Made by a program: the position numbers and the translations under genes. From Trypanosoma brucei (Eukaryota): DNA of 64,000 nt. This document shows positions 1 to 53,818 of the stretch, piece after piece. The stretch lies in the NCBI GenBank assembly GCA_000002445.1, contig CM000208.1, positions 3,488,001 to 3,552,000 of the forward strand, written 5' to 3'. Position 1 is the first letter of the stretch. Every line of letters begins with the position of its first letter. The notes under the pieces are model-generated. The model ran no database searches, was not told the origin of the DNA, and saw only the letters and a program-made list of their open reading frames with translations.

Positions 1-490
1 TTTGTTCTTGTTGTTGTTATTGCTGTTGTCGCTTGTTTTGTTTCTTTTTAATTATTATTATTATTATTTTTTTTTCTTTTTACGTCCTCGTTTTCATTCA
101 TTTTATTAACTTTCTTTGTTTTTATTTTTATTTTTTTCTTTTTAAAATACCGTTTCATTTTAGGAACTTCTCCTCTCTTATTTTATACCATATCATCGTT
201 ATATCACCACCACCATTGCCATCGTATTATTATTATTATTATCATCATCATCATCATCAATATTGTTACCCCCTCCTGTTTGTTCGAGTACAAAAAGCAG
301 AGAGATACAAACCAAACAACAACAACAAGGAAAAATAATAATAATAATAATAAAAAAACAAAAGATGGAAAAAAGGGGGAAAAACAAAAAAACAGAAGAA
401 GAAAAAAACGAACACGTATTTAAAAACTTACAAGTAAAAGAGAAAAAGAGTAAAGAGAAAACGAAAAATAAGAAGCGGGAGAAATGAGAT

Positions 491-557
491 TTATTTGATT
501 CCTCATGTGGACTCCCTTCCCTGGTAGATGCAGGAATCCACATGAGGAATCAAATAA
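491..557. repeat. perfect 21 bp inverted repeat (ttatttgattcctcatgtgga and tccacatgaggaatcaaataa) with a 25 bp spacer, forming a potential hairpin
   Basis: Left arm 491-511 and right arm 537-557 are exact reverse complements. It sits in otherwise homopolymer-rich sequence. Confidence 0.85.
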
Positions 558-1232
558 AACATATAAAAATCAAAACAATACAAAAAAAACAAAAAAAAGG
601 AGGAGGTCGCAGAGGCGAAGCGACGTGCTGAAGAGTGTACTGAAAACAAATGAAAGGAACAAAAAAAAAAGGCAAAAAAAAAGAGAGAGGGGTGTTGAGA
701 CCATTGAATGTTTTTGATTGCCAGCAAAGCGATAAAAACAAAAATAAAAGTAAAAAAAAACTATTCTACCGAAGGAGGGGGGAAGAAGGCTTTTTTTAAA
801 AGGACAAACAAGGGGAATAGGGAAGAAATGAACAAAAAGCAAAAAAAAAAAACACCGCTATCGGAAGTGAGTCATAACACTACGCACGCTATATATATAT
901 ATATATATATGCGCCTCTTTTTATACGGGTGTGCGCGTGCGCTTTCCTTTTTTTTTCTTTCTTTCTCCTCTTCATTCCTAAATATTTATTAGTTCGTGTG
1001 GCATCGAGTGAAATCCGTCGTTGCGTGCGGGGTCGCTAAAAAAAAAAAAACAAAAACAGAAAAGGGTAAAGGGTAAAAACTGTCAACCTCCATTATTCTT
1101 TTTCTTTTCCCTAATTATTTTACCTTCAATTTTATTTTGGCTCCTCTTCTTTTTTTTTAATTTCATTATTTCCTTTTACACCAAACACATTTACACTCCT
1201 TTTTCTTTTTATAAATATACTGCCGTTCTCAC

Positions 1233-1276
<44 letters not shown>

Positions 1277-4200
1277 AATATATATAAATAAATATTTCTT
1301 TCTCTCACTGTACCTCTACCCTTTTAAACATTTCCCAACAACCACTGGGCTCAATAGAAAAAAAAAAAGTGACAACAACGGTATTATCACCGTGAAAAAG
1401 AGAAAGAAAAAGATATGGTAAAAAAAAACATAAATACAAATATAAATAGAAAGAAGGTGGGGAATAATTTAAAAAAAAACTGAAAGAAAAAAAGAAAAAA
1501 ACAAGGGGAAAGAAGTCAAATCCAAAAGACGTTAACGGTGAAATAACACAAATTGGAAGAAAAGATAAAAATGAAGATAAATGGGACTTTTATAATTTAA
1601 TAAAAGAAAAAAAACAACAAAGGAGACATTTTATTTTGCTTCACCGGCTTTCTTTTCTTTTTCCTGCTTTCATGGGAGAAGGAAGGACGAAGGAAAGAGA
1701 AACTTTACAAAAAAAAAAAAGAAACGAAAACGAAAAATTAAAAAAAACAAAAAAAAACAAAAAGCAAAAGGGAATGGAAAAAGTGACACCAGGCGACAAA
1801 GTGGAAAATGAGAAGAAGATAAAAGACAAAAAAACAGAAGGGAGAAGAGGAGGGGAACAAAAAGCAAAAACGTAATATCGCTCGAATAAAAATAAAAATA
1901 GAAACATAATTTTTTTTAAAAAAAAGAAGAGAGTCAACAAAGAGAAAAGTAGAAAAACAAAAAGTTAACAAAAACAAAAAAAATCATAGCGTGGACCCCA
2001 AGGGAAACTATTCTGTACTGTGCTTTTATTCATTTGGTTCACTTTCCTCCCTTGTCAAAGCGTCACCATAACGGTGACAACAAACGGTAGAACGCGATAA
2101 TAATAATAATAATAATAACAGTAATAATAATAATAATTGAACTCATATTTTAGTGCACGCGTGCGTGTGAGTGCAGGTTTAGGTTTGTGTACGCGTGAAC
2201 ACTTATTAATATTATATTTTAAAGGGTTGTTATTATTATCGTTGGTGTTAATATCGTTAGCATTATCATCATTATTATTAGGATCGAAGGAGCAAAACAA
2301 AAATATTTCGAAACATCAACAACAACAAAAAAAAAAAGGGAACTCTGGATAGGACCACGGGAGTTTAAACGGGGAGGATGGAAAAAAAACAAAAATAAAG
2401 AAGAAAAAGAGAGAAAACGGTGGATCTAGTGGAAATGGATGCCAAATAAACAAACAAATATATATATATATTGGTAATGGTATTGATATTGATATTGATA
2501 TATTGATATATTTAATAAAATGGAAAAAGCAAATAACAAGAAAGAGCAAAAGTGAAGACTATCAGACAACAACGACAACAAATGAAAGAATGAAATAAAA
2601 TCAAAAACTATAAAATTTTTAAAAAATTAAAAAAAGGAACTACAGAGACTTATGTGACGAATGAAGGAGCGAAGTGGGCGAACAGGAGCAGCATTAGCTG
2701 GCATACACACATACACATATGTTAATATGTAAATATGTAAATATATAAATTAAATACTAACCTAATATATAAACATATATGTACTTACCGGCACGTAAGC
2801 GTAGACATAGTTCCCTCACGCCCACAGCCCCTACTTCAAACATAAACATATATCCGTAGCACATATAATATTATATTTATATATACAAACATACATATAT
2901 ACGAAATAAGGTCATCCATCACCACTTCCATCAATATCTTTTTTTCTTTTCTTTTCTTATTTCATTGTGCTTTTGAGTTTCTCTCCCCCTCGCTTTTTTT
3001 TTCTTTTTTAACCTTTTGATTTGTTCGTTTGTTTCTCATTCTTTTTTTTTTCCTCCTACTCCCCCCCCCCTCTCCCTTTTTCCCGTAGTAAAGATTATTA
3101 TTATTATTATTTCTTTTTTTTTCCTCTCCCTCTCTCTCTCTCTTCACAGAAAATACAGTAAGGCACACATCTCCCCACTCACAGCACTAAACACAAAAGA
3201 GAGATTTTTCCTTTTTTTTTTGTTTTTTTGTAAAAGGAAAAAAAATGTACATACCAAAAACTAAAACAAAAAGAACAATAATAAAGAAAAAGTGAACGAA
3301 AACGAAAACAATGAGCGACAAGCGTAAACTTAATAAATAAAAAAAATGAAAAAAAATGAAAAATGAAAAAACAGACAAAAACCTCTTCGTGTTATTCCCC
3401 GTCCTCAGACCTCATTCTCATCATCTCACCACACAAATTTTCGCCACTTAAACGCCAGCTGTACTTTCGCCCCCTCCCCCCCCCCCAAAGAAAAAAATAT
3501 AAATATAAATATAAATAAAAATATTAATATTAATATTAACTTCGCGGTGTCACAAACTTCCCTTCTTCCTTTTCTCTCCTTTTCGTATCGAATACCTTCG
3601 CACAAACACACACATATAAATACATATAAAAAAAACGAAAAAAAAAAAATATATATATATATGTATATTTCGTACACGGTGGCATCCCTACTACAAATAT
3701 TTGAGAAGAACAAAACAAGAAAAAAACCTTTGTGTATTCCTCTTTTTTCCTTCTTGGTTATTTTAATTTTTTTAAAAAAAAATTATTTATTTATCGATCT
3801 CTGCATTGTCTTCACCGAATCGCGCACGCTTCATTCTTTTCCTTTGAAATCATTTTAAAAAAAAAACTCGAAATTGTTTCGTATGCGCTTGCGGGCTCTC
3901 ACGCCCCTCCCCCCAAACAGAGAAACCAACTAAAGTTTAAAACAAATGACAATAGTTTCTGTGCATATTTTCCCTCTCCTTAACAAGTACAAGAAAAAAC
4001 AAAAAAAAAAAAAGAAAAGCACACATTCACACACTTTGGTCGCCGCAAATGTGATTTCCATCCCCTTCGTTCTCCTTCCTTTCCCCCTTCTCTCCTTTTC
4101 TATCTTGGAAAAAAAAAATAATAATAAAACAAAATAAAGTAAAATAAAGTAAACAGTTTAATTATCTTCCCCCTTTTCACCCCACACACCCACACCGCAC

Positions 4201-5510
4201 GCACGCACGAACGTAAATTTTTATGCGTTGAGACTCTTCCTTTTCTTTCTTTATTTCTTTACTAATTTATTCATCTCTTGAGTGTTTTGTCATAGTTTTA
4301 TCATTATTTTTTTTTTTTTGCGTCTCCTTCCTTGATGCCGCTCAGCCGCTACACATGCCTTTTCTCGCCTTCCCTTCGTTTCTCTTCGGTGTTTTCTTTT
4401 TGCTTTCCTCCTTCTTCTTTTTCCCCCCTTTTTTCTCTCTTTTCTTTTTCTTGTTTTAGTTTTAATTTTAGTTTTAGTTCTATTTTTATTATTGTTGTTG
4501 CTTTCCCCTTGTTTTGCTCCTCCATTTCCTTCATTCCTTCCCTTGTTTTAATGTTGCGGTTTTTTGTTCTGTTCTCTCCTTCAATGCTTCTTCCTTCTCC
4601 GAAATCGTGTTCGGTACGGGTTCAGATGAGAAGTCACACACACACACAAAAAAAAAAAAAAGAGATTCGGCCTCCTCCCGCTCCCCCTTTAGGTTCCAAA
4701 AAAAAAAAAAAAGAGGCGTAACAGCACTCACAGCACTGTTTCTCCATGTTTCTTTTCCTTCTTCTTCTTTCTTCCTCTTCTTTTGTTCGTTTAACATCAA
4801 TGATATGTTTCGGTGAAAAGATAAAACGAACTGTAGAAGAAAATGGGAGAAGGAGGAAGACCGATGCAGTGGCACACCATCTGCCAAAAGCGCATCTTTC
4901 TTCTGCTCTTCTTTTCTTTTTATTTCTATTCCTTCTCCTTCCTTTCCCATTTTAGTCACTTCCCCTTCACCTTCCCATAACGCCACACGCCACATGCCGT
5001 CCAAAGACAGTTTGGTGACGGTAGAAAAGGTTTTTTTTTCCCCATCCCACCACTTTAAATACCCCTCAAACATAAATAAATAAATTTATATTTATATATA
5101 TATATATATACTTTTTTTTTCGTTTCTCTGTGCGCGAGCGGCTCCACGGCTGACGGTCAAGAATTTCTGAAACTCTGCTCCCTTCCCCTCCCTTCCCTTC
5201 CTCCTTCAGTAACAACACAAAAAGACGCTCCCTCGTCCTCCTCTAAGCGGAAGAGGAGTTCTGGGGTGAAACGAACTTCGAAACAAGAAAAAAAAAAAGG
5301 TCTCGCAACACTCCCCACCTCCTAACCAATAAACACACACTTACAATCATTCCGCTACCAACCAACTCACTATCCTATACCTACGTGTTGAACTGCACGG
5401 AGCACAATTTATCTTTCCAGTCACGCAAAGACAAAAAGGAAGCGTCAAACCTCAGCGTCACTTTCTTCCACAAAGTGTAGTTCTGCAGCCGTTAACACTT
5501 TCACACACAC

Positions 5511-5830
5511 TTACATGGTGGGGCCTCCTCCTCCTCCTCCAAACATCCCGCGCATATTTCCTCCCGATGCTCCAAATCCCCCGCTGCCGAAACCGCCACC
5601 ACCGCCACCACCACCGCCGCCGCGACCACCGCCCATTCCAAAACCACCGCTGTTGCCGCCACGCCCGAAAACGTTGCTCATTCCAAAACCACCGCTGTTG
5701 CCACCCCGACCGCCGCGATAACCACCGCCACCACCGCCGCCACCGCGACCACCGCCCATTCCAAAACCACCGCTGTTGCCACCACGCCCGAAACCGCGAT
5801 AACCGCCGCCACCACCTCCGCGGTTATTGT
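5511..5830 (-). repeat. in-frame tandem DNA repeats encoding the Gly/Arg-rich tail of the helicase
   Basis: The block ccattccaaaaccaccgctgttgccaccacgcccgaaa... recurs at about 5630 and about 5750. At protein level the repeat is GGNSGGFGMGGGRGGGGGGGG. Confidence 0.8.
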
Positions 5831-7367
5831 TGTTGTTATTATTGTTGGGGCGCTTGGCCAGTGCACGAACTTCAGGAGAAATGACCTGATTGGTCTCATT
5901 GAGAAGTGGAATGAGATCATCCACAATGTTGCGGTTCTTCTCGTTAAAAAATGAAATGGCGACGCCCACTTTGCCAGCACGGCCTGTGCGGCCGATGCGA
6001 TGCACGTAATCGTCAATATTGCTCGGCATGTCATATTGGATCACAACCCCGACATTGGGGATGTCGAGTCCGCGAGAAGCTACGTCTGTTGCGACAAGAA
6101 CTTGACAAGCGCCTGACTTAAACAGCCTGAGAGCCTCTTCGCGCTCACGCTGCACACGATCGCCGTGGATAGAAACGCACGCCAACTCGCTATTGCGCAG
6201 GAAACGCTCCAAATAATCGGCATCACGCTTCTTTTCGACAAAAACGAGAACAAGCTTGCCTTCATTTTCACGAAGTAACGTGAGTAGCGCCTGACGCTTG
6301 TCCGGGTCCTCAATCCAGCGAACGTCCTGAGTGATATTCTCCGTTGTGGAGCCCACGCGTCCAACCTGAAGGAACGAGTGGCGGCACATAAACTCCCTGG
6401 CGAGCCGCTGAATCTCAACGGGAAAAGTGGCAGAATAGAGCAGAGTTTGGCGCTGACCTGCCCTTGGCATATCACTGTCTGGACCTTGAACAATCATCCG
6501 AATTTGCGGTTCAAATCCCATATCCAGCATTCGATCAGCTTCATCCAATATCAGGAAGCGGATTTCAGAGAAGCGGACGTATCCACGAGAGAACATATCC
6601 ATAAGTCGTCCAGGGGTCGCAACAAGCAATTTACACCCGCGGGAGAGCTCATGTACCTGGTGGCGTGGATCAGCACCGCCATAGACGACTACACAGCGGA
6701 CAGGCGTATGGTAGGTGAACTTGCGGGCTTCTCCATAGATCTGAAGGGAAAGCTCCCTCGTTGGTGCAAGGATAAGGGCTTGGGGGCTGGAGTGGCTGCC
6801 CGGGCTGTACGGAGGGCGGTTCGAAATATTCAACAGTATCTCGTTGATAGCAGGAATAAGGTACGAAGCTGTTTTCCCCGAACCAGTTTGTGCACACGCC
6901 ATAAGATCCCGATGATTGAGCGCTGTTGGAATACCCAAGCTCTGCACAGGCGTTGGCTTGGTGTACCCACAGCGTTTCACATTTTCCAGCAGCACCGGAA
7001 CCATGTTCATTTCACTGAACGATAACACTGGCGCAATGTCGTTTGGCGTGATAGTCATATTCACCTCTCCGTGTTGGTCAAAGTTGATGCCCGGAGTGTG
7101 ATCCTTAAATATGTCCTCATCGGCTGGCTCCTCACGGTGGTAGCCATGGCCGGAGGTTTCCCCTTGGTACGGCACGTTGCGACGGATAAATTCGCCACGA
7201 CCACGGGAGGGGCCATCAAAACCTTCGCGCGGCCTTTGCTGATAACCACCATAGTTGTTGTACCCAACCTGGTGGCCGGCTTCGCCAAATGCTGGGGCGC
7301 GTGCCCACGGGTTGGCGTTGGGGTTGAACTGCTGATGGCCGCCCTGGCCGAAATTCATGCCGTGCAT
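5511..7367 (-). CDS. ATP-dependent DEAD-box RNA helicase of the DDX3/Ded1 family (HEL67-like) with a C-terminal Gly/Arg-rich RGG/GYRGG repeat tail
   Basis: Translation contains AQTGSGKT (motif I), PTRELSLQI, DEAD, SAT and HRIGRTGR motifs. The C-terminal roughly 100 aa are GGRGG/GYRGG repeats. The ORF track starts at a non-ATG codon. The first in-frame ATG (MHGMNFGQGG...) is at 7367, read as cat at 7365-7367. Confidence 0.85.
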   Translation of the reverse strand: MHGMNFGQGGHQQFNPNANPWARAPAFGEAGHQVGYNNYGGYQQRPREGFDGPSRGRGEFIRRNVPYQGETSGHGYHREEPADEDIFKDHTPGINFDQHGEVNMTITPNDIAPVLSFSEMNMVPVLLENVKRCGYTKPTPVQSLGIPTALNHRDLMACAQTGSGKTASYLIPAINEILLNISNRPPYSPGSHSSPQALILAPTRELSLQIYGEARKFTYHTPVRCVVVYGGADPRHQVHELSRGCKLLVATPGRLMDMFSRGYVRFSEIRFLILDEADRMLDMGFEPQIRMIVQGPDSDMPRAGQRQTLLYSATFPVEIQRLAREFMCRHSFLQVGRVGSTTENITQDVRWIEDPDKRQALLTLLRENEGKLVLVFVEKKRDADYLERFLRNSELACVSIHGDRVQREREEALRLFKSGACQVLVATDVASRGLDIPNVGVVIQYDMPSNIDDYVHRIGRTGRAGKVGVAISFFNEKNRNIVDDLIPLLNETNQVISPEVRALAKRPNNNNNNNNRGGGGGGYRGFGRGGNSGGFGMGGGRGGGGGGGGYRGGRGGNSGGFGMSNVFGRGGNSGGFGMGGGRGGGGGGGGGGFGSGGFGASGGNMRGMFGGGGGGPTM

Positions 7368-15685: not shown

Positions 15686-16486
15686 TTAAGCAGCCACCAT
15701 CTTCCTTCCCATAGAGAGGAACTCGGAGTGCTCGTCGGTGGGGTCGCGCGACACCTCCGTCTCCGCCCAGAGGTCGGGGGTAAGGAAGCCGTATGTCTTG
15801 CGCAGTGCATAGAATGTGGCCATGATGAAATTACCACGCGTACGCGTCTTACCACATGAGCTAGTATATACGTCCTCAACGCCGGCAAACTCAAGAATCT
15901 TCTTCGGCACAGGCGCAGCAACGATACCAGCACCACGTGGAGCAGGGATCAAGCGAACGGCAACGGAGCCGCACTTCCCGGTTACCTTGATAGGGATTGT
16001 ATGCGGTTCACCGATCTTGTTACCCCAGTAGCCACGGCGCACAGGCACAATACTCAGCTTCGCAGCGATCATTGACGCACGGATGGCCAGGGACACCTCC
16101 TTGCCGACGCGGGCGCCGACACCAATGTGGCCGTTACCGTCACCAACAACATTGAAGGCCTTGAAGCGTGTGCGCTGTCCGGCAGACGTTGCCTTCTGCA
16201 CGGGGAAAACAAGCATCATCTCATCACGGAGGTCGCCTTCGCGGATCAGTTGGTCCACGATCTGATGCTCTTTGATGGGCATCGAGAAGAGGAAGATTTC
16301 CTCCAGCGAGGTGATCTTTTGATCCTTCACAAGGCGGCCAAGTTTTGTGCATGGCACCCATTCCTTCTCATCACCACCACCGCCACGACCGCCACGACCA
16401 CCGCGACCGCCGCGACCGCCACGTCCGCCACGGCCACGACCGAAGCCGCGCTGCTCGCCACCTGTACCGCGTGGTGCGTCAGCCAT
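15686..16486 (-). CDS. RPS2: 40S ribosomal protein S2 (uS5), copy 1, with an N-terminal RGG box
   Basis: 266 aa. GRGGRGG N-terminal repeats, then [14 protein letters not shown]...[29 protein letters not shown]...[16 protein letters not shown], which is diagnostic of S2/uS5. ATG at 16484-16486. Confidence 0.92.
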
Positions 16487-16968: not shown

Positions 16969-19900
16969 CTACACCGTTGCGACTACCTGCGTTAGATGCT
17001 CCATGCGGCGAGCGGTGAGTGTGGCCTCCAGTTGGCCGAGGGCATCCTCGGCATCTACAGCGCCATCGAAGCGCAAAAGCACACCGAGGTCGACAAACAA
17101 CAAACTCTTTATTTGCCGTATAACCTCCGCCAACACCGGAAGGTGCGACTCCATTTCCAGCTTGCGGCTCCACAAGGAGAGTAGCTCTAATCTAGTGGCA
17201 TTGGAACGCAACAACTCAGCGAAATTCAGCAACTCACCCGCAGTAAAAGGGTTGTCAGACACAATAAGTTCCTGCAGAGACGCCAGTACTTCGTCTGGGA
17301 AAGCTTTAGCATCAGCCACTTCGGCATTCTTAATACTAAGAAACCTGAGGCCTGACGGCTTGAGGAACTTAAAGGCTGCCGATACACCCACTGCCCCGAG
17401 AGGTATTTGATCAAGCGACAATCTCTCCAGTGTTCCCTTACACCGAGATAGTAGGCATCCGAGTGCACCACCACCTTCAGCACCACCCAGGTTGTTACGG
17501 GACAACTGTAACTCCCGCAACACAAAGTTGCCTTCCGGGGATGCTCCGGACCACTTCAGAATGTGCTCTGGTCCCAATTCATTGCCATTAAGATGAAGGA
17601 TATCCAAACGGCTGCATAATCTACCCAGTGCCTCGACTTCATCGTCACCCCAACACTGGGAGAGGTCGTTAAAACCTAATAACAGTGTTGTGATATTACC
17701 AGCAGCAACTGCAGACAAAAGTTCAAAAAAACAGGAAGACTTGGAACCCTCTTGGTTGACGTCCGGGCACTCCGATGAATCGGGTAGTCCCTCCCCCAAT
17801 ACCTCCGTACCCGCTTCATGAGACAGCTCGACAAACCCAATGCGATTACCCTCAAGTGAAAGCGAAGTAATCGTCTTGTTGGTACACAAACTCTCAGCCA
17901 GTGCGCGGATGGTTTCCGGGTACATGTCATTGTACGCTAGATCAAGCACCTTAAGCGTGTTATTGCGACGAAGAGCCGCGAAGAGAGAAGAACAACCGGG
18001 CGTAACACCGCTGGGCACATCCACGACACTCGGCGCAACTGCCTCATCCCCATCGCTTGCAACATCTTCAACTACCTTTGCCGCGCGCTTCCTCCCGAAG
18101 ACATTGCGGCGCAAAAGAAGGCACTCTACCGTCTTATTTTCCGCGAGGACGTTTCCGATATGCTTCATTCCGTGGCTTCCAATCTGGCAACTTCCAAGGT
18201 CCAGTACTCGAAGGAAAGGAACGCAGCGTTTTTGTGAAGTAACGGGTATACTCCATTTTCCGAGAACATCCAGAAGCGCCGATATTTCCTCCTCTATGTT
18301 ATTGACATCCCCTTCTCCATCCGGGCTGGGTATGTGCTGATCATCTTCGTGCACCACCGGTTCCTGTTCTTCGTCCCCCCCGTGCTGGTCCTCGTCAAAT
18401 TCCCCACCATAATCACTTGCTGCGCCAAAAGTGGCTGTTTCGTCAATAGCCAAGACGTCTGCACTTGCCCTTGAGTTCCCTGTAATCCACGCCTTAAAGG
18501 TTTGTAACCACAAGAGGTACTCAGATTGCATCCGGTCACGCTCGCGCGACTCCTCAACCAGCGTCCTCTTGTAATCTACTGTCAATTTGTTGAGCAGTCG
18601 GTCCGCATCGTTCGACAAATCCTTTTGGATACGCTCTTCCTCCTCCTCCTCAAGCTGTAACTCGTGCCGTAACGCAGAGGCTAAAGCAACAGCACCTTTA
18701 TTCCCAATGGGGTTGCCACGCAGACGAAGGACCTGTATGTGTGACCACCCGCTCCGGCGCCTGCAGTACTTGTCAATCTCAACACGTTTTTCTTCAGCCA
18801 ATTCCTCACGGATGATGGCGTGCTCCTCCATCAGCAATGAAGCCTCACGTACATATTGATTAGCACAACCCCGGCGTAACTCCCTCTCCTCCTTGTATAA
18901 CCTACGAAATAGGCGGTTGAACTTCCTCTCTAGATGTGGTGGAAGGGGTTTGGGCTTCCCTTCTCCCTCTTCATCCTCCTCCTCTTCTTCTTCCTCCTCC
19001 CCTTCCTCTTCCGCATCCCCGTCAGCCGCGTCCTCCTGCTGCTCCTCATTCCCTTCATCCTCTTCATCCTCCTCGTCGTCATTTTCATTATCCGACCCAT
19101 CTTTCATTAGTGGTGAACCACCTTCCTGTGTGCCATCTTGGTCGGTGCCCTCTTCCTCCACGGGGTCCTCTACTTCCTCGTCATCTTCAAAATCATCCCC
19201 TTCATCCTCTTCTTCATCCTGGCCAATAAAAAAGGAAACGGATTCAAGACCAACACCATCATCCTCCTCGTCCACAACAGCATCTTCCTCCCCATCTTGC
19301 ACATCCTGAGGATAGAGCCGTGTGTCAGACTTCACGAGGGCTTCCAGCAGCTGCTGCGCCGTTATCCCATTGATGTTATTATTATTAAGGTTCAGGTCGA
19401 CAACGAACTTATTAAACTTAATAAATTCGACAAGTTGCGCTAACGCATCGCTGTCATCCTTCGTCAGACCTAAGTCATTGCCTTCAAGATCCAGAACGCG
19501 AATCATCGTATCCTTCAGCATCGGCAGCAGTGACTCAGCAACCCGACCAAACTTTGTGTTGGGCAAACCCAACACCTCAAGCTCCTTTGCTCCATGAAAA
19601 AAATTCTGGAAATCGTCAATTGAAGAACCTTCAACGAACTCACCGGAAACTGTAAGGGAACGAAGATGCCCCAACATACGGTGGTTTGCACATATAACGG
19701 TAAAAATGTCATGAATCGCAACAGTTTTCGCCGGTGCTAACATGAGAGTGACATGTCGCATATTATCCGATGTCCTGTAGTCTTTGGATTGCGCCTCCGT
19801 TCGTACAATGTGATTAAGAAAATCCACTATTTGATCTGAGGGAAGCTGAACATTCGAAAGAGCTTCGGGTGACGGAAACGCATTCCATATGTGTGAGGTA

Positions 19901-20280
19901 TGGTAACCTACAAGTGGCTGACCTCTTGGAGTCGTACAGCGGACCTCATCCTCAACATTCGCAACAAGTGGTTGGGTACCGTTAGAAAAAACGCGCGCGG
20001 CAGAACAACTACTGCATGGCCACCATGCCAAATTAGATCTAGAACATACAATAGACGCGTTGAACCGTAAAATTGAACACTCCACTTCCCGCGCCACCTC
20101 CGCCTCAAGAGCCTTGGCTGCAATGCCGTGTTGGGCCGCGATATCACCCTTTACTTTCGCACTGTTTACCCGTGGAGGAGCAGCAGCAACTCCACTTTCT
20201 GCGGCACAACTCCCCAAATGCAAACTATCAAACTGCACAGCATCGTCGGCGGAGGAAAATGTACACCATGATCGTGACAT
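16969..20280 (-). CDS. leucine-rich-repeat (RNI-like LRR) protein with a long central poly-acidic (D/E) tract
   Basis: About 1103 aa. Repeated LxxLxLxxNxI/LG units (LDLEGNDLG, LDLGSCQIGSHG, LDLAYNDMY, LSLEGNRIG). An acidic run EEEDEGDDFEDDEE...EEEGEEEEEEEEDEEGEG. The real ATG is at 20280. The track adds one GTG codon. Confidence 0.6.
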   Translation of the reverse strand: MSRSWCTFSSADDAVQFDSLHLGSCAAESGVAAAPPRVNSAKVKGDIAAQHGIAAKALEAEVAREVECSILRFNASIVCSRSNLAWWPCSSCSAARVFSNGTQPLVANVEDEVRCTTPRGQPLVGYHTSHIWNAFPSPEALSNVQLPSDQIVDFLNHIVRTEAQSKDYRTSDNMRHVTLMLAPAKTVAIHDIFTVICANHRMLGHLRSLTVSGEFVEGSSIDDFQNFFHGAKELEVLGLPNTKFGRVAESLLPMLKDTMIRVLDLEGNDLGLTKDDSDALAQLVEFIKFNKFVVDLNLNNNNINGITAQQLLEALVKSDTRLYPQDVQDGEEDAVVDEEDDGVGLESVSFFIGQDEEEDEGDDFEDDEEVEDPVEEEGTDQDGTQEGGSPLMKDGSDNENDDEEDEEDEGNEEQQEDAADGDAEEEGEEEEEEEEDEEGEGKPKPLPPHLERKFNRLFRRLYKEERELRRGCANQYVREASLLMEEHAIIREELAEEKRVEIDKYCRRRSGWSHIQVLRLRGNPIGNKGAVALASALRHELQLEEEEEERIQKDLSNDADRLLNKLTVDYKRTLVEESRERDRMQSEYLLWLQTFKAWITGNSRASADVLAIDETATFGAASDYGGEFDEDQHGGDEEQEPVVHEDDQHIPSPDGEGDVNNIEEEISALLDVLGKWSIPVTSQKRCVPFLRVLDLGSCQIGSHGMKHIGNVLAENKTVECLLLRRNVFGRKRAAKVVEDVASDGDEAVAPSVVDVPSGVTPGCSSLFAALRRNNTLKVLDLAYNDMYPETIRALAESLCTNKTITSLSLEGNRIGFVELSHEAGTEVLGEGLPDSSECPDVNQEGSKSSCFFELLSAVAAGNITTLLLGFNDLSQCWGDDEVEALGRLCSRLDILHLNGNELGPEHILKWSGASPEGNFVLRELQLSRNNLGGAEGGGALGCLLSRCKGTLERLSLDQIPLGAVGVSAAFKFLKPSGLRFLSIKNAEVADAKAFPDEVLASLQELIVSDNPFTAGELLNFAELLRSNATRLELLSLWSRKLEMESHLPVLAEVIRQIKSLLFVDLGVLLRFDGAVDAEDALGQLEATLTARRMEHLTQVVATV

Positions 20281-20570
20281 CACAAATATATTTACTCCTA
20301 TCTTACACAGGTAACAATCAGGTCACAACAAGGTAAAAAAGAAAAAGAAAAATAACTAAACTACCAACAAACACACCAAAGTACAAACCGTACATAACTC
20401 TGATTAACATATGCTACGAACCTTCATGCATCACCAAATAAAAAAAATAACAAACAAAAAGACACATTAACCAGAATTTTTAAAAAAAAACAAAAATAAA
20501 AATATACATAAACTAGGATCACCAACAAAAAAAATTATCATACAAAGCAACAACACAACATCTAAACTAT

Positions 20571-20726
20571 TTACCATGAATTAACGACCAACTTAAATAT
20601 TGCCTCCCCTTCGGGATTCTTGTCAGGATGTAACTCGAGCGCCTTCAGTTTGTAAGCCTCTCGTATTCCGTCCTTAGACGCAGTCCTTGGAACCCCCAGG
20701 ATCGCATAATAGTCCGCCTGCTGCAT
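20571..20726 (-). pseudogene. truncated J-domain gene fragment (51 codons) left at the boundary of the 3.1 kb segmental duplication
   Basis: Encodes [51 protein letters not shown]. The first 48 aa are identical to the N-terminus of the DnaJ protein at 35440-36771. Identity ends at the duplication boundary (about 20578) and a stop follows immediately. Confidence 0.75.
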
Positions 20727-21275
20727 ACCGTACTTTTTCCCTTCCCTTTCTCAGCAGTAATAAGGGAGAAGTGCAGTGGTAAAAGAAGTAGAAATAAAAT
20801 AAGAGACAGCGACTTTAAGAAGCAGCAACAGACTCATAGATCCAACAAGACAATCAATAGCGAGCTCGGCAAGCACGTAAGCACCGCCCCCATTTACACA
20901 CAAGAAAAAGGAAACATATACTCCGTTGCTTACACGGTCAAGGGGGAAGGATCATAGGGAAACCAGGCAAGCAAAGCCACAATACGTTTCGCCCCACTAT
21001 CGGCAGGGTAAACCACCACATATTAAAGACGAACAGGAAGACATGGAGACAACACGCCACGCACAGAAGCCACACCCAACGTATATAAGTGCGCGAGTCC
21101 CATCTTCTCACACTAGCCATCTATTACATTCAATACTGCATAGGACAAGGGCGTACAGAGAAAATTCAAGCAACCATTCTGAACCGGTTATCCAACAAAT
21201 AAAAATATGCTGCATTCCCTTAACCATCCACACCACAGCATCCTAAAAGGAATGACGGTAACGCACTACGTATGT

Positions 21276-22433
21276 CTATTCACCGTTCCGCCGTCTCTCC
21301 TCCTCTATCGCATCTTCCCATTCAAGATCCTCCATTATGCTCTCCGACTGCCGCAGTGCAGCTGGAAGGCGCGAAAGGACGAAGCCTACTGCGCAAAGTA
21401 ACACAATGGTCTCACCCCACAGTCCAATATATTCCTGCATGAAGTCCAGCCACGAAATTATCACACGGTATTTAAACGTTCCAAGCGTCATCTCCTGTCC
21501 CCATCCACCACTGCGAGCACTGGTATACCGCATATGCTCTGGAGGCTTTATCCCATAGAGAAGATAGTAATTACGTGCCTCAGGGTTCACAAGAATGTCG
21601 TATGCATCCTTCAGCTCCTCAAGAACCATCGACCGGTCTTCCTCATTCTTCTCCGTCTCTTCCACTAATTTCTTTTTTGTTTCGTATGCTCTCTTCAGTT
21701 CAGTGGGGTCGACTGAGCGTGCGTCCTTCGTATCCTTCGTGTCCAGCAAAACACTGAAAAGTTCACGGTCTACCTGAGAGGCAAGGCGATTGTACGCAAG
21801 CTCCACCTGTTGATTATTGGCTTCGCACGCACGACCACAGTGAACCAGCTGCCCTCGCGCATCCTGATGTTCTTTATACGCCTTACGGATTTCCTGCCGG
21901 ATGCGGTAGTTCTCCCGCCGTCGTTCCTTGTCAAGGTCCTCTCCACCTGCCTCATCAGCAGCAGCTCCGGTAGATTTCGGACGGATTCTCCCCTTCACAC
22001 CCAATATTTCGTAATAGCTCTCCGCTTCACTTGGAGTGACGGCACCATCATGAGTCGGATTGACCTCACCGAACCCTTTGCCACTCTCAATCTGAGGTGG
22101 CTCCAGGTTAAACTCCACGTCATACTTCGCTAACGCAAGCAACGAAATGGCAATCACTACCGCTACGGAGAAAAAAATGCGAAACATAGAGCCAGAATTT
22201 TCATGCTCGCCTACGACAGCATCCCACTCGGCTTGAGTGATTATACCACGGTTGGGGTCCCGTCGAGAGTAGCGGTTGGTATTAGCAAACCGTGAATTGG
22301 GCCGCTGCACACCATACATGGCGTTGTGCCGTGCAAACACATCCTCCCGAGCAGCACGAGCCGCGCTCTCCTCCAGCTTGTTACGCCGCTCCTGAGCCTG
22401 CTGCTGCCGTATTTGCGCTGCTCGAGGTATCAT
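21276..22433 (-). CDS. hypothetical membrane protein with a split or atypical J-domain-like sequence (copy 1 of 2)
   Basis: 385 aa from the first ATG at 22433. The track start is TTG. It has an N-terminal TM helix (MFRIFFSVAVVIAISLLAL), then YYEILGV ... KRAYETKKKLV ... AYDILVNPEARNYY reminiscent of J-domain helices II and IV, and a C-terminal TM segment. It is 99.7% identical to 37321-38478. Confidence 0.5.
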   Translation of the reverse strand: MIPRAAQIRQQQAQERRNKLEESAARAAREDVFARHNAMYGVQRPNSRFANTNRYSRRDPNRGIITQAEWDAVVGEHENSGSMFRIFFSVAVVIAISLLALAKYDVEFNLEPPQIESGKGFGEVNPTHDGAVTPSEAESYYEILGVKGRIRPKSTGAAADEAGGEDLDKERRRENYRIRQEIRKAYKEHQDARGQLVHCGRACEANNQQVELAYNRLASQVDRELFSVLLDTKDTKDARSVDPTELKRAYETKKKLVEETEKNEEDRSMVLEELKDAYDILVNPEARNYYLLYGIKPPEHMRYTSARSGGWGQEMTLGTFKYRVIISWLDFMQEYIGLWGETIVLLCAVGFVLSRLPAALRQSESIMEDLEWEDAIEEERRRNGE

Positions 22434-32527: not shown

Positions 32528-33328
32528 TTAAGCAGCCACCATCTTCCTTCCCATAGAGAGGAACTCGGAGTGCTCGTCGGTGGGGTCGCGCGACACCTCC
32601 GTCTCCGCCCAGAGGTCGGGGGTAAGGAAGCCGTATGTCTTGCGCAGTGCATAGAATGTGGCCATGATGAAATTACCACGCGTACGCGTCTTACCACATG
32701 AGCTAGTATATACGTCCTCAACGCCGGCAAACTCAAGAATCTTCTTCGGCACAGGCGCAGCAACGATACCAGCACCACGTGGAGCAGGGATCAAGCGAAC
32801 GGCAACGGAGCCGCACTTCCCGGTTACCTTGATAGGGATTGTATGCGGTTCACCGATCTTGTTACCCCAGTAGCCACGGCGCACAGGCACAATACTCAGC
32901 TTCGCAGCGATCATTGACGCACGGATGGCCAGGGACACCTCCTTGCCGACGCGGGCGCCGACACCAATGTGGCCGTTACCGTCACCAACAACATTGAAGG
33001 CCTTGAAGCGTGTGCGCTGTCCGGCAGACGTTGCCTTCTGCACGGGGAAAACAAGCATCATCTCATCACGGAGGTCGCCTTCGCGGATCAGTTGGTCCAC
33101 GATCTGATGCTCTTTGATGGGCATCGAGAAGAGGAAGATTTCCTCCAGCGAGGTGATCTTTTGATCCTTCACAAGGCGGCCAAGTTTTGTGCATGGCACC
33201 CATTCCTTCTCATCACCACCACCGCCACGACCGCCACGACCACCGCGACCGCCGCGACCGCCACGTCCGCCACGGCCACGACCGAAGCCGCGCTGCTCGC
33301 CACCTGTACCGCGTGGTGCGTCAGCCAT
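32528..33328 (-). CDS. RPS2: 40S ribosomal protein S2 (uS5), copy 2
   Basis: The 266 aa product is identical to copy 1. DNA identity begins at the stop codon and ends 4 nt upstream of the ATG. The track's MRM start at 33334 is GTG. The true ATG is at 33326-33328. Confidence 0.92.
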
Positions 33329-39738: not shown

Positions 39739-39902
39739 CCTCCGCGGCCCCCACCTCGGCCTCCTCCGCGACCGCCACGGCCGGAGCCACGACCCCCGCC
39801 GCGTCCACCACCGCCGCCGCCGCCGAAAGCTCCCCGTCCTCTACCGCCACGGCCAAAGCCGCCACCACCAGCACCGCGGCCGCCCCCTCTACCACCGCGC
39901 AT
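38988..39902 (-). CDS. NOP1: fibrillarin (rRNA 2'-O-methyltransferase NOP1) with an N-terminal GAR domain
   Basis: 304 aa. ATG at 39900-39902. The N-terminal roughly 65 aa are RGG/GGRG repeats. The core [40 protein letters not shown]...[37 protein letters not shown]...[11 protein letters not shown]...[13 protein letters not shown]...[13 protein letters not shown] is canonical fibrillarin. Confidence 0.92.
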
Positions 39903-41740: not shown

Positions 41741-43663
41741 CTACACCTTCTTGACTTGGGACGCCCGAACGAAGACACCCTTCCCTTTCGGGCATGTAAA
41801 GTATTGTTTTTTATCAATAAACGAAGATCCATCGTTAGTCCCTTCATTTCCTTCAAACATTTCCAATCCTATCCAGATACCGGCACCAAAAGCTGTAGGG
41901 CCATTGAAGCGAACAGCCGCACGGAATCCTTTATACGTGACAATGTCACCTATATGCAAATCTTTCGCCGAGCTAACGTGATTAACGGCGGCGGAACGAC
42001 CGGGTGTAGTGGAACGGGTGCCGAAGCGCCCGGGTGTGGTGGTCCTTGTTGAAGTATGGCTCACCGGCAGAGAGCTGTTCGCCAGCCGAGACACACCGGC
42101 ACGCGCTGCCGACGTGCTCCGACCCGTGGTGGTAGTTCGGGACGGCGTACCGCTGCGCATCGGTGTTGAGCCGATGGTACGCGAGTGTGTGGCCCCAGCA
42201 ACCCGAACGGGAGTTCCACGTCGAACGGTACTTGCCGCGCTTCTCGCAAGTGGGCTCCGTGTCGTTAACCTGTTGCCTGCTGGTCGTGACATGGAGCCGT
42301 TGGAACTTTCGTTGGCGCTGCTACGCCCTGGACGCACGCCTGTGCGTGCAGGGGAAGTAACCCGCAGCGAGCTGCTTGTGCCGGCGGCGCGGCCTGCACC
42401 GACACGCGAAGCCGTGGAAGGAGTCTCGGCTCGCCGCGGGGTGCTCGTGCGGCGGTTTTCTTTCTCGCGTGTCGCTCGGCTCTCCTCCCGCCGCTCCTGT
42501 GCCTCTCGCAGTCTCTGGTTTTCACGTTGCAGGAGTGTAATACACTGGTGCAACGCCTGTGCCTCCTTGTTGAACATTTTGCAAGCTTGAGCCACCTCAG
42601 GAGTGGGCAATGTTTCAAGGATTTTTGGTACCATAACCGATTGTCGTGGGCGCGCTACATCCTCTAACCATTGATGCCCAAGCGCGTCGTTGAGAGACAT
42701 TCGTTTGTGGGGATCCTTGTTTAGCAACCTCTCAATGAAATCAAAGGCGATGGGCGATATGCCCTGCGGCTCGGGCAGCGTCGTGTCCATGATGAAACGA
42801 AAAACCTCCTTCTCTGGGGCGTGGGCAGCTGCGGAGTAGGGAAAGCTCCCGGAGAGCATAATGTAAGTCACGACACCAACCGACCATGTGTCTGCCTTGA
42901 AACCATCGTAGTGTGTTTGAGTAAATTTTGCATAAAACATTTCTGGTGGGCCGTACCGAGGCGTGCCAATGACATCTGAGCAAACGATGCGCTTACCAAT
43001 AAGGCGCTCAGCGCCAGGGTATTGCATGGATAAACTAATAGGATCTAATGCATCGCGCTCCTCCGCGGACGTACATATGCCTTTGGACCGCTTAGCAAGA
43101 CCAAAGTCCGTCAACTTGATGTTATCGTCATCACTAACAAGCAGATTCTCCGGTTTTATGTCACGGTGAATAACATCGTGGATGTGACAATGTAGCACAG
43201 CTTTTATTATCTGATATGTGTAGTATTTCGACGTTTCCTCAGACAGTTTCCCCTCCGGTGCTTGGAGAATTATTTCACACAAGTCACCACACTGAACCTC
43301 CTCAAAGAAAAGAAGAAACTCCTCCTCTGTCTCAATGTACTCTAAAAATGTGACAACATTACCATGCGACGGAATGTGACGTAGTACATCGATCTCCCGT
43401 TTCACCTCTGCCATGGCGCGCTCCACATTTCCCTTGGTCAGAGACAAAAGGTACTCCTTCTGTATTATCTTCACAACAACCTTCATTCCTGGTTGAAATG
43501 ACGGTGGCTCGTACGGATCAATAACCGAACAGCGCTTGACTACGCTCCACGCCCCACGCCCGGCGACAGAATCGTTATGGATGATATATTTATTATCTAC
43601 ATGAGTGACATCCGCCGTTGGTGGGTTTTCTTGTGCAGTCACTTCTGTGTCAGTGGATTCCAT
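41741..43663 (-). CDS. Ser/Thr protein kinase (CAMK-like catalytic domain) with a Ser/Thr/Arg-rich linker and a C-terminal CAP-Gly domain
   Basis: The kinase has a lysine in VVVKII, HRDIKPENLL, DFGLAK and GTPRYGPPE. The linker is STPxR/SRTxT low complexity. A C-terminal GDIVTYKGFRAAVRFNGPTAFGAGIWIGLEMFEGNEGTNDGSSFIDKKQYFTCPKGKGVFV matches the CAP-Gly consensus (GxxV...G.VRF.G.T.F..G.W.G.E.......G.NDG......YF.C....G.F). The first ATG (MESTD) is at 43663. The track start is TTG. Confidence 0.75.
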   Translation of the reverse strand: MESTDTEVTAQENPPTADVTHVDNKYIIHNDSVAGRGAWSVVKRCSVIDPYEPPSFQPGMKVVVKIIQKEYLLSLTKGNVERAMAEVKREIDVLRHIPSHGNVVTFLEYIETEEEFLLFFEEVQCGDLCEIILQAPEGKLSEETSKYYTYQIIKAVLHCHIHDVIHRDIKPENLLVSDDDNIKLTDFGLAKRSKGICTSAEERDALDPISLSMQYPGAERLIGKRIVCSDVIGTPRYGPPEMFYAKFTQTHYDGFKADTWSVGVVTYIMLSGSFPYSAAAHAPEKEVFRFIMDTTLPEPQGISPIAFDFIERLLNKDPHKRMSLNDALGHQWLEDVARPRQSVMVPKILETLPTPEVAQACKMFNKEAQALHQCITLLQRENQRLREAQERREESRATREKENRRTSTPRRAETPSTASRVGAGRAAGTSSSLRVTSPARTGVRPGRSSANESSNGSMSRPAGNRLTTRSPLARSAASTVRRGTPVRVAGATHSRTIGSTPMRSGTPSRTTTTGRSTSAARAGVSRLANSSLPVSHTSTRTTTPGRFGTRSTTPGRSAAVNHVSSAKDLHIGDIVTYKGFRAAVRFNGPTAFGAGIWIGLEMFEGNEGTNDGSSFIDKKQYFTCPKGKGVFVRASQVKKV

Positions 43664-52894: not shown

Positions 52895-53818
52895 CTAATT
52901 CGATCTGCGCCACTCCACATAAATGGGTTTCAGCGCATCCACGCCGGAAAGTACACCAGCGCCAGCGATACCGCGTAGGATGTTTGCACCAGCGCCTCGC
53001 ATCAGGGACGCAGCTCCCTCCTGTTTAATCACCTGCAACATACAATCCATCGAGTTCTTGTACTTCACAGCAGCACCTGATGTCATCATCATGCGCCGGC
53101 GAACGGTGTCCAACGGGTAAGAAAGAAGCCCCGCCACAATAGTCACAGCCCATCCAAGGAAGAAGTTTACGATGAATGTGTCCACAGGAAGCATTGGCTG
53201 AAGGGTGTCGTAAAGACCAAAGTAGAAACCACGGTACACAACAATACCAATACAGGATACCACAAAGCCACGATACAACCCAGCGATGCCATCACTCTTC
53301 CATGTCTTGACATAGCAGTCCACAATACCGTTAAATTGGCGCTCCCCACCACCCTTCACAGACTTCGTGTCGTTAGCGAGACGGGTACGGACGTAGTCCA
53401 AGGAATACACAAAACAAAGAGATGCAGCACCAGCGAGACCACCAGATGCCATGTTACCCATAAACCACTTGCCATAGCCATCCTTCTCCTTTTTGTAATT
53501 GAACATCCTCTTAAATTTATCCTTAAAGGCGAAATTCAGCGCCTGAGTTGGAAAGTAACGCAGAACATTTGACAGGTTACCTCGCCAAAGCGGATACACG
53601 CCCTCCGTGCTGATGGTGCGCCGAAAGCAGTCAACGACACCGTTGTATGGCTTGTCCAGTCGGCCTTGCTTCATCATCTCTCCCTGGTTCTGTACGAGCA
53701 GTTTTACTCTTTCGATTGGAGCAGCCGCCGTCTTGGATAAACCGGCAGCGACACCACCAATCATAAACTCCTCAAGGAACCCAAGTTTGGGGGCCGGTTC
53801 CCGCTTTTTATCCGTCAT
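52895..53818 (-). CDS. mitochondrial ADP/ATP carrier (AAC, SLC25 family), tandem copy 1
   Basis: 307 aa with three mitochondrial-carrier repeats. The RRRMMM AAC signature (DTVRRRMMM), with [26 protein letters not shown] and GNMASGG. ATG at 53816-53818. Confidence 0.92.

What the first reader, a model, noticed from the sequence alone, without database searches (positions are those of the whole stretch)
491..557. Perfect 21 bp inverted repeat with a 25 nt loop in the low-complexity tract
An exact palindrome arm of 21 bp is very unlikely by chance in 64 kb. It would form a strong RNA hairpin if transcribed, within the presumptive helicase 3'UTR or downstream. It could be a regulatory stem-loop, a processing signal, or the footprint of a small mobile element or small RNA precursor.
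Basis: seen in the sequence. Interest (0 to 1): 0.5.

Follow-up and report, generated by a model that had tools for sequence, protein, structure and literature searches.

The report
Lone palindromic hairpin in trypanosome spacer
A real, non-random 22-26 bp inverted repeat lies in the gene-poor, AT-rich spacer downstream of the DED1-1/HEL67 helicase gene on Trypanosoma brucei chromosome 10; it is most likely a lineage-specific by-product of a replication template switch, and no function could be shown for it.

Summary
The perfect stem is 22 bp (490-511 / 537-558). It extends to 26 bp with one mismatch, leaving a 17-nt loop. Simulated sequence gives stems of only 9-15 bp, and nothing comparable exists elsewhere in the 64 kb.

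The window is T. brucei chromosome 10. All genes lie on the minus strand. The hairpin is about 5 kb past the stop codon of the DED1-1/HEL67 helicase gene, in a >10 kb low-complexity desert before RPN8. It interrupts a ~575-nt polypyrimidine tract. On the transcribed strand the mismatch becomes a G·U pair, giving a 27-bp stem (-44.5 kcal/mol).

Two other T. brucei-group assemblies carry the hairpin, but their flanks are equally conserved, so this says nothing about selection. T. vivax and T. melophagium show no counterpart. I found no second copy, no target-site duplication, no true Rfam family match and no local target. The published AGO1-bound small-RNA loci (procyclic cells) do not include this locus.

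Best reading (about 0.55): a neutral palindrome created in one step by template switching and passively transcribed. A cis-acting RNA role, a Dicer substrate or a mobile-element footprint are not excluded, and nothing found here supports them. Interest is low.

The parts
533..558 (-). 5' arm of the hairpin as transcribed (minus strand: UUUAUUUGAUUCCUCAUGUGGAUUCC). It is 69% pyrimidine, like the surrounding tract, and its outer end overlaps a local T-rich 16-nt repeat.
   Evidence: The repeat comes from TRF, unit TTTTTATTGTTTTAT at L001 16853-16901.
516..532 (-). Apical loop, 17 nt. In assembly L001 it carries a 2-nt deletion, which lets the stem extend by one more Watson-Crick pair.
490..515 (-). 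3' arm as transcribed (GGAGUCCACAUGAGGAAUCAAAUAAA). It forms a purine-rich patch that interrupts the polypyrimidine strand. It pairs with 533-558 through 25 Watson-Crick pairs and one G·U (window 512 pairing with 536).
559..856 (-). Pyrimidine-rich tract upstream of the hairpin on the transcribed strand. It contains candidate AG splice acceptors at about 641/640 and 629/628, which lie 70-82 nt before the hairpin. Their use is inferred and has not been shown.
   Evidence: Pyrimidine profile of the orthologous L001 16597-16894 and the sequence itself.
291..489 (-). Pyrimidine-rich tract immediately downstream of the hairpin. A first AG after this tract lies at window 277/276 (AACAAACAG|GAGG), about 215 nt past the hairpin, and purine-rich sequence follows.
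5511..7358 (-). The upstream gene, the DEAD-box helicase DED1-1/HEL67/DBP1 (Tb927.10.14550 orthologue). Its stop codon is about 4.95 kb upstream of the hairpin in the direction of transcription.
   Evidence: 100% identity to T. b. gambiense P0001. The name comes from PMC9639853 table S6.

Best explanation
This is a lineage-specific palindrome of the T. brucei group. A single replication error most likely created it: a short-range template switch, or fold-back copying, wrote the reverse complement of a local T-rich stretch about 17-25 nt downstream of itself. This happened inside a fast-evolving, AT-rich, low-complexity spacer between the DED1-1/HEL67 helicase gene and RPN8. The whole region belongs to one RNA polymerase II polycistron read on the minus strand. 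The palindrome is therefore passively transcribed and folds into a 27-bp hairpin in the precursor RNA, and possibly in a long poly(A)+ RNA. It has no dedicated function. One transition has accumulated since its birth.

Shown here: the repeat exists, it is not a chance product, it is unique in the DNA available, its genomic context is as described, and it is shared among T. brucei-group assemblies.

Inferred: the template-switch origin, which arm was copied from which, that the site is transcribed, and that it is neutral.
For: Chance is excluded: simulations give stems of 9-15 bp against 22 observed, and this is the only such hairpin in 64 kb. Some one-step mutational mechanism or selection is therefore needed. 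Template switching is an established way of making perfect hairpins in a single event (PMC8794818; PMC10710096).

The two arms fit their surroundings differently. The 5' arm is pyrimidine-rich like the ~575-nt polypyrimidine tract around it and overlaps a local T-rich repeat. The loop plus 3' arm is an isolated purine patch (pyrimidine fraction 0.32, against mostly 0.68-0.96 in the rest of the tract). This is what copying the complement of local sequence would produce.

Nothing points to selection. The stem is identical in the window, L001 and L002, but the flanks are about 95% identical too and no pair has changed. T. vivax and T. melophagium have no hairpin and no alignable sequence downstream of the helicase.

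There is no family membership: nothing at Rfam gathering scores, and only generic hits on both strands below threshold. There are no tRNA genes in the window, and such genes flank Pol III small-RNA genes in trypanosomes (the association is established knowledge). There is no other copy and no local target site.

Published AGO1-bound small-RNA loci from procyclic cells do not include this locus, and no miRNAs were detected (PMC3447711; PMC3683921).
Against: The template-switch origin cannot be demonstrated, because no outgroup sequence close enough to align was reachable; T. congolense contigs are not in the collections. The stem is still almost perfect (one transition in 52 nt) and is shared by at least three T. 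brucei-group genomes. That is also what purifying selection on an RNA structure would give. The single mismatch is a G·U on the transcribed strand, though this has a 50% chance for a random transition. The 2-nt loop deletion in L001 lengthens rather than shortens the helix. The position inside a polypyrimidine tract, in the zone where trypanosome polyadenylation and trans-splicing are decided, would suit a processing role. No transcriptome or small-RNA reads could be examined directly.
Confidence: 0.55

Rival explanations
1. A cis-acting RNA structure in the precursor RNA or in a long DED1-1 3'UTR. A 27-bp helix embedded in a polypyrimidine tract would alter the use of neighbouring trans-splice acceptor and polyadenylation sites, or it would bind a double-stranded-RNA-binding protein that affects mRNA stability or localisation.
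For: The hairpin splits a ~575-nt polypyrimidine tract, with AG dinucleotides 70-82 nt upstream and about 215 nt downstream. In trypanosomes such tracts set both the downstream splice site and the upstream poly(A) site (established knowledge; PMC6597758 and PMC9639853 appear in the list). Poly(A)+ RNA covers at least part of the desert. The hypothetical ORF Tb927.10.14540, which lies between DED1-1 and RPN8, has high read counts and almost the same RBSR1-RNAi fold changes as the DED1-1 coding region (-0.87 against -0.92, -0.64 against -0.63, -1.03 against -1.01; PMC9639853 table S6). The minus-strand fold is the better one, because of the G·U pair.
Against: There is no covariation and no conservation outside the T. 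brucei group. It is not known which ORF in the window corresponds to Tb927.10.14540, so the hairpin may not be in any mature RNA. No hairpin-based signal of this kind came up in the trypanosome processing literature searched here. There is no similar hairpin in any other intergenic region of the window.
Confidence: 0.2
2. A small-RNA precursor. The transcribed hairpin would be cut by TbDCL2 or TbDCL1 into roughly 22-25-nt duplexes loaded on TbAGO1, making it a miRNA-like or hairpin-siRNA locus.
For: The stem length (26-27 bp) is close to one T. brucei siRNA duplex of 22-25 nt (PMC3447711). T. brucei has a working RNAi pathway, and long inverted repeats do give siRNAs there. Rfam's perfect-hairpin miRNA models give their best sub-threshold hits at exactly 490-558. 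Template-switch hairpins are a documented source of new miRNAs in primates (PMC10710096).
Against: The Rfam hits reflect structure only. They occur on both strands at 35-38 bits against a gathering score of 95. The siRNA-producing inverted repeats known in T. brucei are 422-10,011 bp long, and this part of chromosome 10 is not in the list of those repeats or in the miscellaneous list. Two deep-sequencing studies found no miRNAs in T. brucei. No complementary target longer than 14 nt exists in the roughly 155 kb of trypanosome DNA examined. The hairpin is not conserved in other trypanosomes.
Confidence: 0.08
3. The footprint or a miniature copy of a mobile element: a foldback or MITE-like element of 69 bp consisting almost entirely of terminal inverted repeats.
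For: The layout, with 26-nt inverted termini and a 17-nt core, resembles a minimal foldback element. It sits in a repeat-tolerant spacer.
Against: There is no second copy in the window or in any fetched locus apart from the orthologous site. There is no target-site duplication: the flanks are ...AATGAGA | IR | ACATATA.... The hairpin-spanning ORF has no relatives among 5.8 billion predicted proteins. The only public metagenome hit is a single half-site in an unrelated activated-sludge contig, roughly what chance would be expected to give. From general knowledge, no class II transposons are known in trypanosomatids.
Confidence: 0.05
4. A DNA-level element. Cruciform or hairpin extrusion at the palindrome would mark or perturb a replication origin, a fork pause site or a recombination hotspot in the AT-rich spacer.
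For: The DNA hairpin is stable (-24.3 kcal/mol, z -8.8). [quoted passage not shown]
Against: That study mentions no hairpins, cruciforms or inverted repeats. The nearest change from poly(dA) to poly(dT) on the + strand is at about 880-950, some 350 nt away from the hairpin. No other spacer in the window carries a palindrome.
Confidence: 0.05

Closest known systems
Hairpins generated by template-switch mutations (Mönttinen and Löytynoja 2022, PMC8794818; Mönttinen et al. 2023, PMC10710096)
   Same: A perfect or near-perfect short inverted repeat with a short spacer, appearing in one lineage within transcribed non-coding sequence. One arm fits the local sequence context and the other does not.
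   Different: The ancestral hairpin-free state has not been observed here, because no alignable outgroup was available. The assignment therefore rests on anatomy and on excluding alternatives, not on a reconstructed mutation event.
Animal and plant miRNA precursors and Drosophila hairpin-RNA loci
   Same: A stable stem-loop embedded in a Pol II transcript, with a stem about the length of one small-RNA duplex.
   Different: The stem is fully paired and only 26-27 bp long (a 35-bp stem is preferred for pri-miRNAs, PMC10710096). No small RNAs are documented from it, it matches no family at threshold, and it comes from an organism in which no miRNAs have been found.
siRNA-producing long inverted repeats of T. 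brucei (IR1-IR7; Tschudi et al. 2012, PMC3447711)
   Same: The same organism, with nearly identical arms that can fold back in RNA.
   Different: Those repeats are 422-10,011 bp long with kb-scale spacers and produce abundant TbDCL2- and TbDCL1-dependent siRNAs. This one is 26 bp and is not among the reported loci.
Trypanosomatid single-hairpin H/ACA-like snoRNAs
   Same: A single hairpin RNA of about 70 nt encoded in a spacer of a Pol II polycistron.
   Different: There is no internal pseudouridylation pocket, since the stem is uninterrupted. No AGA box follows the stem on either strand, the site is not in a snoRNA cluster, and Rfam gives no hit.

Membership tests
miRNA / hairpin-siRNA precursor | A stable stem-loop in a transcribed region, with a stem long enough for one Dicer product | tested here: met
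   27-bp stem on the transcribed strand, -44.5 kcal/mol, z -9.2. That the site is transcribed is inferred from gene orientation.
miRNA / hairpin-siRNA precursor | Match to a curated precursor family at its gathering score | tested here: not met
   No hit at gathering scores. The best permissive hit is mir-3910 at 37.9 bits against 95, found on both strands.
miRNA / hairpin-siRNA precursor | Discrete small RNAs from the arms that depend on Dicer or are bound by Argonaute | not testable with these tools
   No read data were accessible. Published AGO1-IP loci from procyclic cells do not list this region (PMC3447711 table 3 and additional file 5).
miRNA / hairpin-siRNA precursor | Complementary target sequence | tested here: inconclusive
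   No match longer than 14 nt in the window plus six loci. The rest of the genome could not be searched.
Inverted repeat born by template-switch mutation | A near-perfect inverted repeat with a short spacer that chance cannot explain | tested here: met
   22 bp perfect, 26 bp with one mismatch, 17-25 nt spacer. Simulations reach 15 bp at most.
Inverted repeat born by template-switch mutation | One arm is native to the local sequence and the other is an out-of-context reverse-complement copy | tested here: met
   The 5' arm is 69% pyrimidine and overlaps a local T-rich repeat. The loop plus 3' arm is a purine patch within a ~575-nt polypyrimidine tract. This evidence is suggestive only.
Inverted repeat born by template-switch mutation | A sister or outgroup lineage keeps the ancestral sequence without the repeat | tested here: inconclusive
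   T. vivax and T. melophagium lack any comparable hairpin, but their spacers cannot be aligned with T. brucei. All three T. brucei-group sequences have it.
MITE / foldback transposable element | Multiple dispersed copies | tested here: not met
   Only the orthologous site was found in the roughly 155 kb of trypanosome DNA held. There was one chance half-site in metagenomes. A whole-genome search was not possible.
MITE / foldback transposable element | Target-site duplication flanking the terminal inverted repeats | tested here: not met
   The flanks ...GAAATGAGA and ACATATAAA... share no direct repeat.
Trypanosomatid H/ACA-like snoRNA | A single hairpin with an internal pseudouridylation pocket and an AGA box 3 nt from the 3' end | tested here: not met
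   The 27-bp stem is uninterrupted. There is no AGA in the 20 nt following the stem on either strand. No Rfam snoRNA hit was found.

The most novel reading that the evidence does not exclude
The hairpin is a young small-RNA gene born by template switching. It would be excised from the DED1-1 / spacer transcript by a trypanosome Dicer and loaded on TbAGO1, making it the first miRNA-like locus in a kinetoplastid. It would also show de novo birth of a small-RNA gene in an organism that lacks Drosha.
Probability: 0.05. Interest if true: 0.65.

Novelty: new member of a known kind. Interest (0 to 1): 0.15.

Why it matters
As it stands it matters little. It is one more example of a short perfect palindrome appearing in fast-evolving non-coding DNA, and no function could be attached to it.

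It has some practical value as a caution for annotators. The palindrome creates mirror-image ORFs on both strands, and one of them was annotated as a 116-aa hypothetical gene in T. b. gambiense.

It would become interesting only if small RNAs or a processing effect were shown. Trypanosomes control genes almost entirely after transcription and have no known miRNAs. A functional hairpin inside a polypyrimidine tract would then be a new type of cis- or trans-acting signal.

Tried and rejected
- **Exact-protein look-ups.** Four exact-product look-ups of window ORFs (two helicase starts, the TPR protein, the hairpin-spanning ORF) were made to pull in more strains or RNA-seq contigs. None is on record.
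- **Homology search with the hairpin-spanning ORF.** I used the 114-aa ORF as a proxy search for other copies or transcript contigs and found no hits. An exact cluster look-up of that ORF and of the annotated gambiense ORFs showed they are not in the collection.
- **T. congolense synteny.** Its helicase and RPN8 proteins exist in the protein database but have no contigs. The Logan contig L006 has only 427 nt upstream of RPN8. The T. equiperdum contig L005 ends before the hairpin, so its lack of a match is uninformative.
- **Rfam.** I ran it at gathering and at permissive thresholds. Only generic hairpin models matched.
- **tRNA scan.** I looked for signs of a Pol III small-RNA gene and found none.
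- **Second 'structured' stretch at 4690-4970.** Weak miRNA-model hits suggested it, but the fold z-score is only -2.07. It reflects polypurine/polypyrimidine complementarity and was rejected.
- **3'UTR length and transcript maps.** I searched the supplements of PMC4845500, PMC2936537, PMC10048164 and PMC11260167 and ran a text search for Tb927.10.14540. None gave the position of the hairpin relative to mature RNA ends.
- **Metagenome scan.** It returned one hit that looks like chance.
- **Replication-origin idea.** The nearest composition switch is about 350 nt away, and the origin study mentions no palindromes.

Full report
**1. The observation**

It occurs nowhere else in the window, even with three mismatches allowed. 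Reading the sequence and the repeat finder show that the perfect stem is 22 bp (490-511 / 537-558) with a 25-nt spacer. The arms continue to 26 nt (490-515 / 533-558) with one mismatch, which leaves a 17-nt loop.

A census of all perfect hairpins of 13 bp or more with loops up to 60 nt found only this one and (TA)n runs. In 200 simulations that keep local dinucleotide content, the longest stem that is not a simple repeat was 9-15 bp, against 22 observed.

Predicted stabilities are:
- plus-strand RNA: -37.0 kcal/mol, z -8.1
- minus-strand RNA: -44.5 kcal/mol, z -9.2
- DNA: -24.3 kcal/mol, z -8.8

The minus strand folds better because the C:A mismatch becomes a G·U pair, giving 27 consecutive pairs. 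In a sliding 80-nt scan the element ranks sixth of about 6,400 minus-strand windows. It does so although it sits in 30% GC sequence, where the mean is -8.8 +/- 6.7 kcal/mol.

**2. Where it is**

All 27 ORFs longer than 200 aa lie on the minus strand, which is the signature of a trypanosomatid polycistronic unit. The ORF at 5511-7358 (-) is a DDX3/Ded1-type DEAD-box helicase that is 100% identical to the T. brucei gambiense protein. The literature calls it HEL67, DBP1 or DED1-1, Tb927.10.14550. The other genes fit T. brucei chromosome 10: a TPR protein, a kinesin-MORN protein, an LRR protein, a Brix protein, and three tandem mitochondrial carrier genes.

The hairpin lies about 4.95 kb past the helicase stop codon in the direction of transcription. 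Two T. brucei-group assemblies were fetched through the helicase: L001 (GCA_003543875.1) and L002 (T. b. gambiense DAL972). The next recognisable gene downstream is RPN8, the 19S proteasome non-ATPase subunit 8.

In L002, RPN8 appears to be only about 1 kb beyond the hairpin. That assembly has a 100-N gap there. In L001, the sequence that lies upstream of RPN8 in T. equiperdum aligns only at 19657-21851. The true spacer between helicase and RPN8 is therefore more than 10 kb. It is 25-35% GC and full of microsatellites and homopolymer-like tracts.

On the transcribed strand the hairpin interrupts a ~575-nt pyrimidine-rich tract (L001 16597-17174, roughly window 856-277). Candidate AG acceptors lie 70-82 nt upstream (window about 641/640 and 629/628). 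The first AG after the tract is about 215 nt downstream (window 277/276). Whether any of these is used is inference.

**3. Evidence on transcription**

No read data can be reached with these tools. Indirect evidence comes from table S6 of PMC9639853. The only annotated ORF between RPN8 and DED1-1, Tb927.10.14540, has high poly(A)+ read counts. Its RBSR1-RNAi fold changes are almost the same as those of the DED1-1 coding region (-0.87 against -0.92, -0.64 against -0.63, -1.03 against -1.01). At least part of the desert is therefore present in stable poly(A)+ RNA that behaves like the DED1-1 mRNA.

I could not determine which ORF in the window is Tb927.10.14540. T. b. gambiense annotators called a 116-aa ORF directly across the hairpin, and another, antisense, nearer the helicase. 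It therefore remains open whether the hairpin is in a mature RNA. The table gives no transcript length for DED1-1.

**4. Comparative evidence**

The window, L001 and L002 all carry the hairpin. The stems are identical, and L001 has a 2-nt deletion in the loop. With that deletion the helix is slightly longer, at -47.6 kcal/mol. The 100-nt flanks are just as conserved (95% mean column identity) and no stem position varies, so there is no covariation signal in either direction.

T. vivax (L003) has only 2.3 kb available past the helicase. T. melophagium (L004) has a 7-kb spacer. Neither has a perfect hairpin of 11 bp or more that is not a simple repeat. Apart from three chance-sized matches of 22-69 nt, nothing in the spacer aligns between species; only the RPN8 coding sequence does.

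T. congolense would be the most useful outgroup, but it is present only as protein records without contigs. The T. equiperdum contig stops short of the site, so its lack of a match means nothing.

**5. Tests against known kinds**

- *Rfam.* No hit at gathering scores anywhere in the window. With permissive settings the hairpin is picked up by several perfect-hairpin miRNA models (mir-3910, mir-3914, mir-737 and others). These hits are at 23-38 bits against gathering scores of 60-117, and mir-3910, the best, matches both strands. This recognises a generic hairpin and is not family membership.
- *H/ACA-like snoRNA.* The stem has no internal pocket and no AGA box follows it, so this is excluded.
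- *Pol III small-RNA gene.* There are no tRNA genes in the window.
- *Mobile element.* The flanks share no direct repeat. No other copy, and no partial match longer than 14 nt, exists in the window plus six fetched loci. A protein-level proxy search with the hairpin-spanning ORF found nothing. A scan of public metagenome contigs found one 21-nt half-site in an activated-sludge contig with no inverted partner, which looks like a chance match.
- *Dicer substrate.* The T. brucei siRNA-producing inverted repeats described by Tschudi et al., from procyclic-form AGO1-IP libraries, are 422-10,011 bp long. This part of chromosome 10 is not in their list of those repeats or in their miscellaneous list. 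That study and a second deep-sequencing study found no miRNAs (PMC3447711; PMC3683921).

**6. Most likely explanation**

A 22-26 bp perfect palindrome cannot arise by point mutation in a neutral spacer, so a one-step mechanism is needed. Short-range template switching during replication is documented to create complete, perfectly paired hairpins in single events. This happens in large numbers in transcribed non-coding DNA (PMC8794818; PMC10710096).

The anatomy fits that mechanism. The 5' arm on the transcribed strand is pyrimidine-rich like its surroundings, and its outer end belongs to a local T-rich 16-nt repeat. The loop and 3' arm form a purine patch, with pyrimidine fraction 0.32 against mostly 0.68-0.96 in the rest of the tract. 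This is what copying the complement of the upstream stretch would produce. One transition has occurred since the event.

I therefore read the element as a T. brucei-group-specific, probably neutral palindrome that is passively transcribed within the polycistron (confidence about 0.55). The origin, the direction of copying and the neutrality are inferences. The existence of the repeat, its non-randomness, its uniqueness in the available DNA and its context are shown.

**7. Rivals**

- *A cis-acting RNA structure that affects poly(A) or splice-site choice or mRNA fate (about 0.2).* This is suggested by the position inside a polypyrimidine tract and by the better fold on the transcribed strand. 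It has no comparative support.
- *A Dicer substrate (about 0.08).* This is compatible with the stem length, but the published small-RNA surveys speak against it.
- *A miniature foldback element (about 0.05).*
[quoted passage not shown] The nearest such switch is about 350 nt away, and that study mentions no palindromes.

**8. Verdict**

The feature is real and its structure was described correctly. I found nothing to support any of the proposed functions. The parsimonious reading is an ordinary mutational by-product in a fast-evolving spacer. Novelty: a new member of a known kind, the lineage-specific hairpin of template-switch type. Interest is low (0.15). The one reading that would change this is a young miRNA-like locus in an organism without known miRNAs. 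Its probability is about 0.05, and mapping existing small-RNA and transcript-end data sets to this site would test it directly.

Noticed in passing
window 1-5500; L001 11852-21851: The spacer between the DED1-1/HEL67 helicase gene and RPN8 is a low-complexity desert of more than 10 kb and 25-35% GC, lying inside a single transcription unit. It contains several long polypyrimidine zones (L001 about 14.5-16.0, 16.5-17.2 and 19.0-20.0 kb), which could define several unannotated processed RNAs. T. melophagium also has a long (7 kb) spacer at this position.
   Followed up: partly
L002 17259-17358: The T. b. gambiense DAL972 chromosome 10 assembly has a 100-N gap just past the hairpin. It hides several kb and makes RPN8 look only about 1 kb away, whereas L001 shows the real distance is about 6 kb.
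   Followed up: yes
window 199-543 (-) and 505-717 (+); L002 16844-17194: The palindrome produces mirror-image ORFs on the two strands that share the peptide PHEESNK. The minus-strand ORF is annotated as a 116-aa hypothetical gene in T. b. gambiense. It has no relatives in 5.8 billion proteins and is almost certainly spurious.
   Followed up: yes
PMC9639853 table S6 (Tb927.10.14540, between DED1-1 and RPN8): The 'hypothetical protein' ORF in the desert has high poly(A)+ read counts and nearly the same RBSR1-RNAi response as the DED1-1 coding region. This suggests it is part of a long DED1-1 3'UTR and not a gene. I could not determine which ORF in the window it corresponds to.
   Followed up: partly
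window 880-1000: On the plus strand the composition switches from poly(dA)-rich (300-880) to poly(dT)-rich (940-1000) across a (TA)9-10 microsatellite at 893-910. This arrangement resembles the origin topology described for T. brucei in PMC13179062.
   Followed up: no
window 52895-56578 (-): Three tandem copies of a 307-aa mitochondrial carrier gene (Pfam Mito_carr) with a 1,380-nt period.
   Followed up: partly
window 33221-33310, 16381-16470, 39741-39830, 42291-42480, 60581-60660: These are the most stable 80-nt local folds in the window (-42 to -49 kcal/mol). They lie outside the AT-rich desert, in the ~50% GC part of the window that holds the ORFs. I did not check whether they are repeats or simply GC-rich sequence.
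   Followed up: no
window 4690-4970: A cluster of weak hits to miRNA models. The fold is only marginally better than shuffles (z -2.07) and comes from polypurine/polypyrimidine complementarity.
   Followed up: yes
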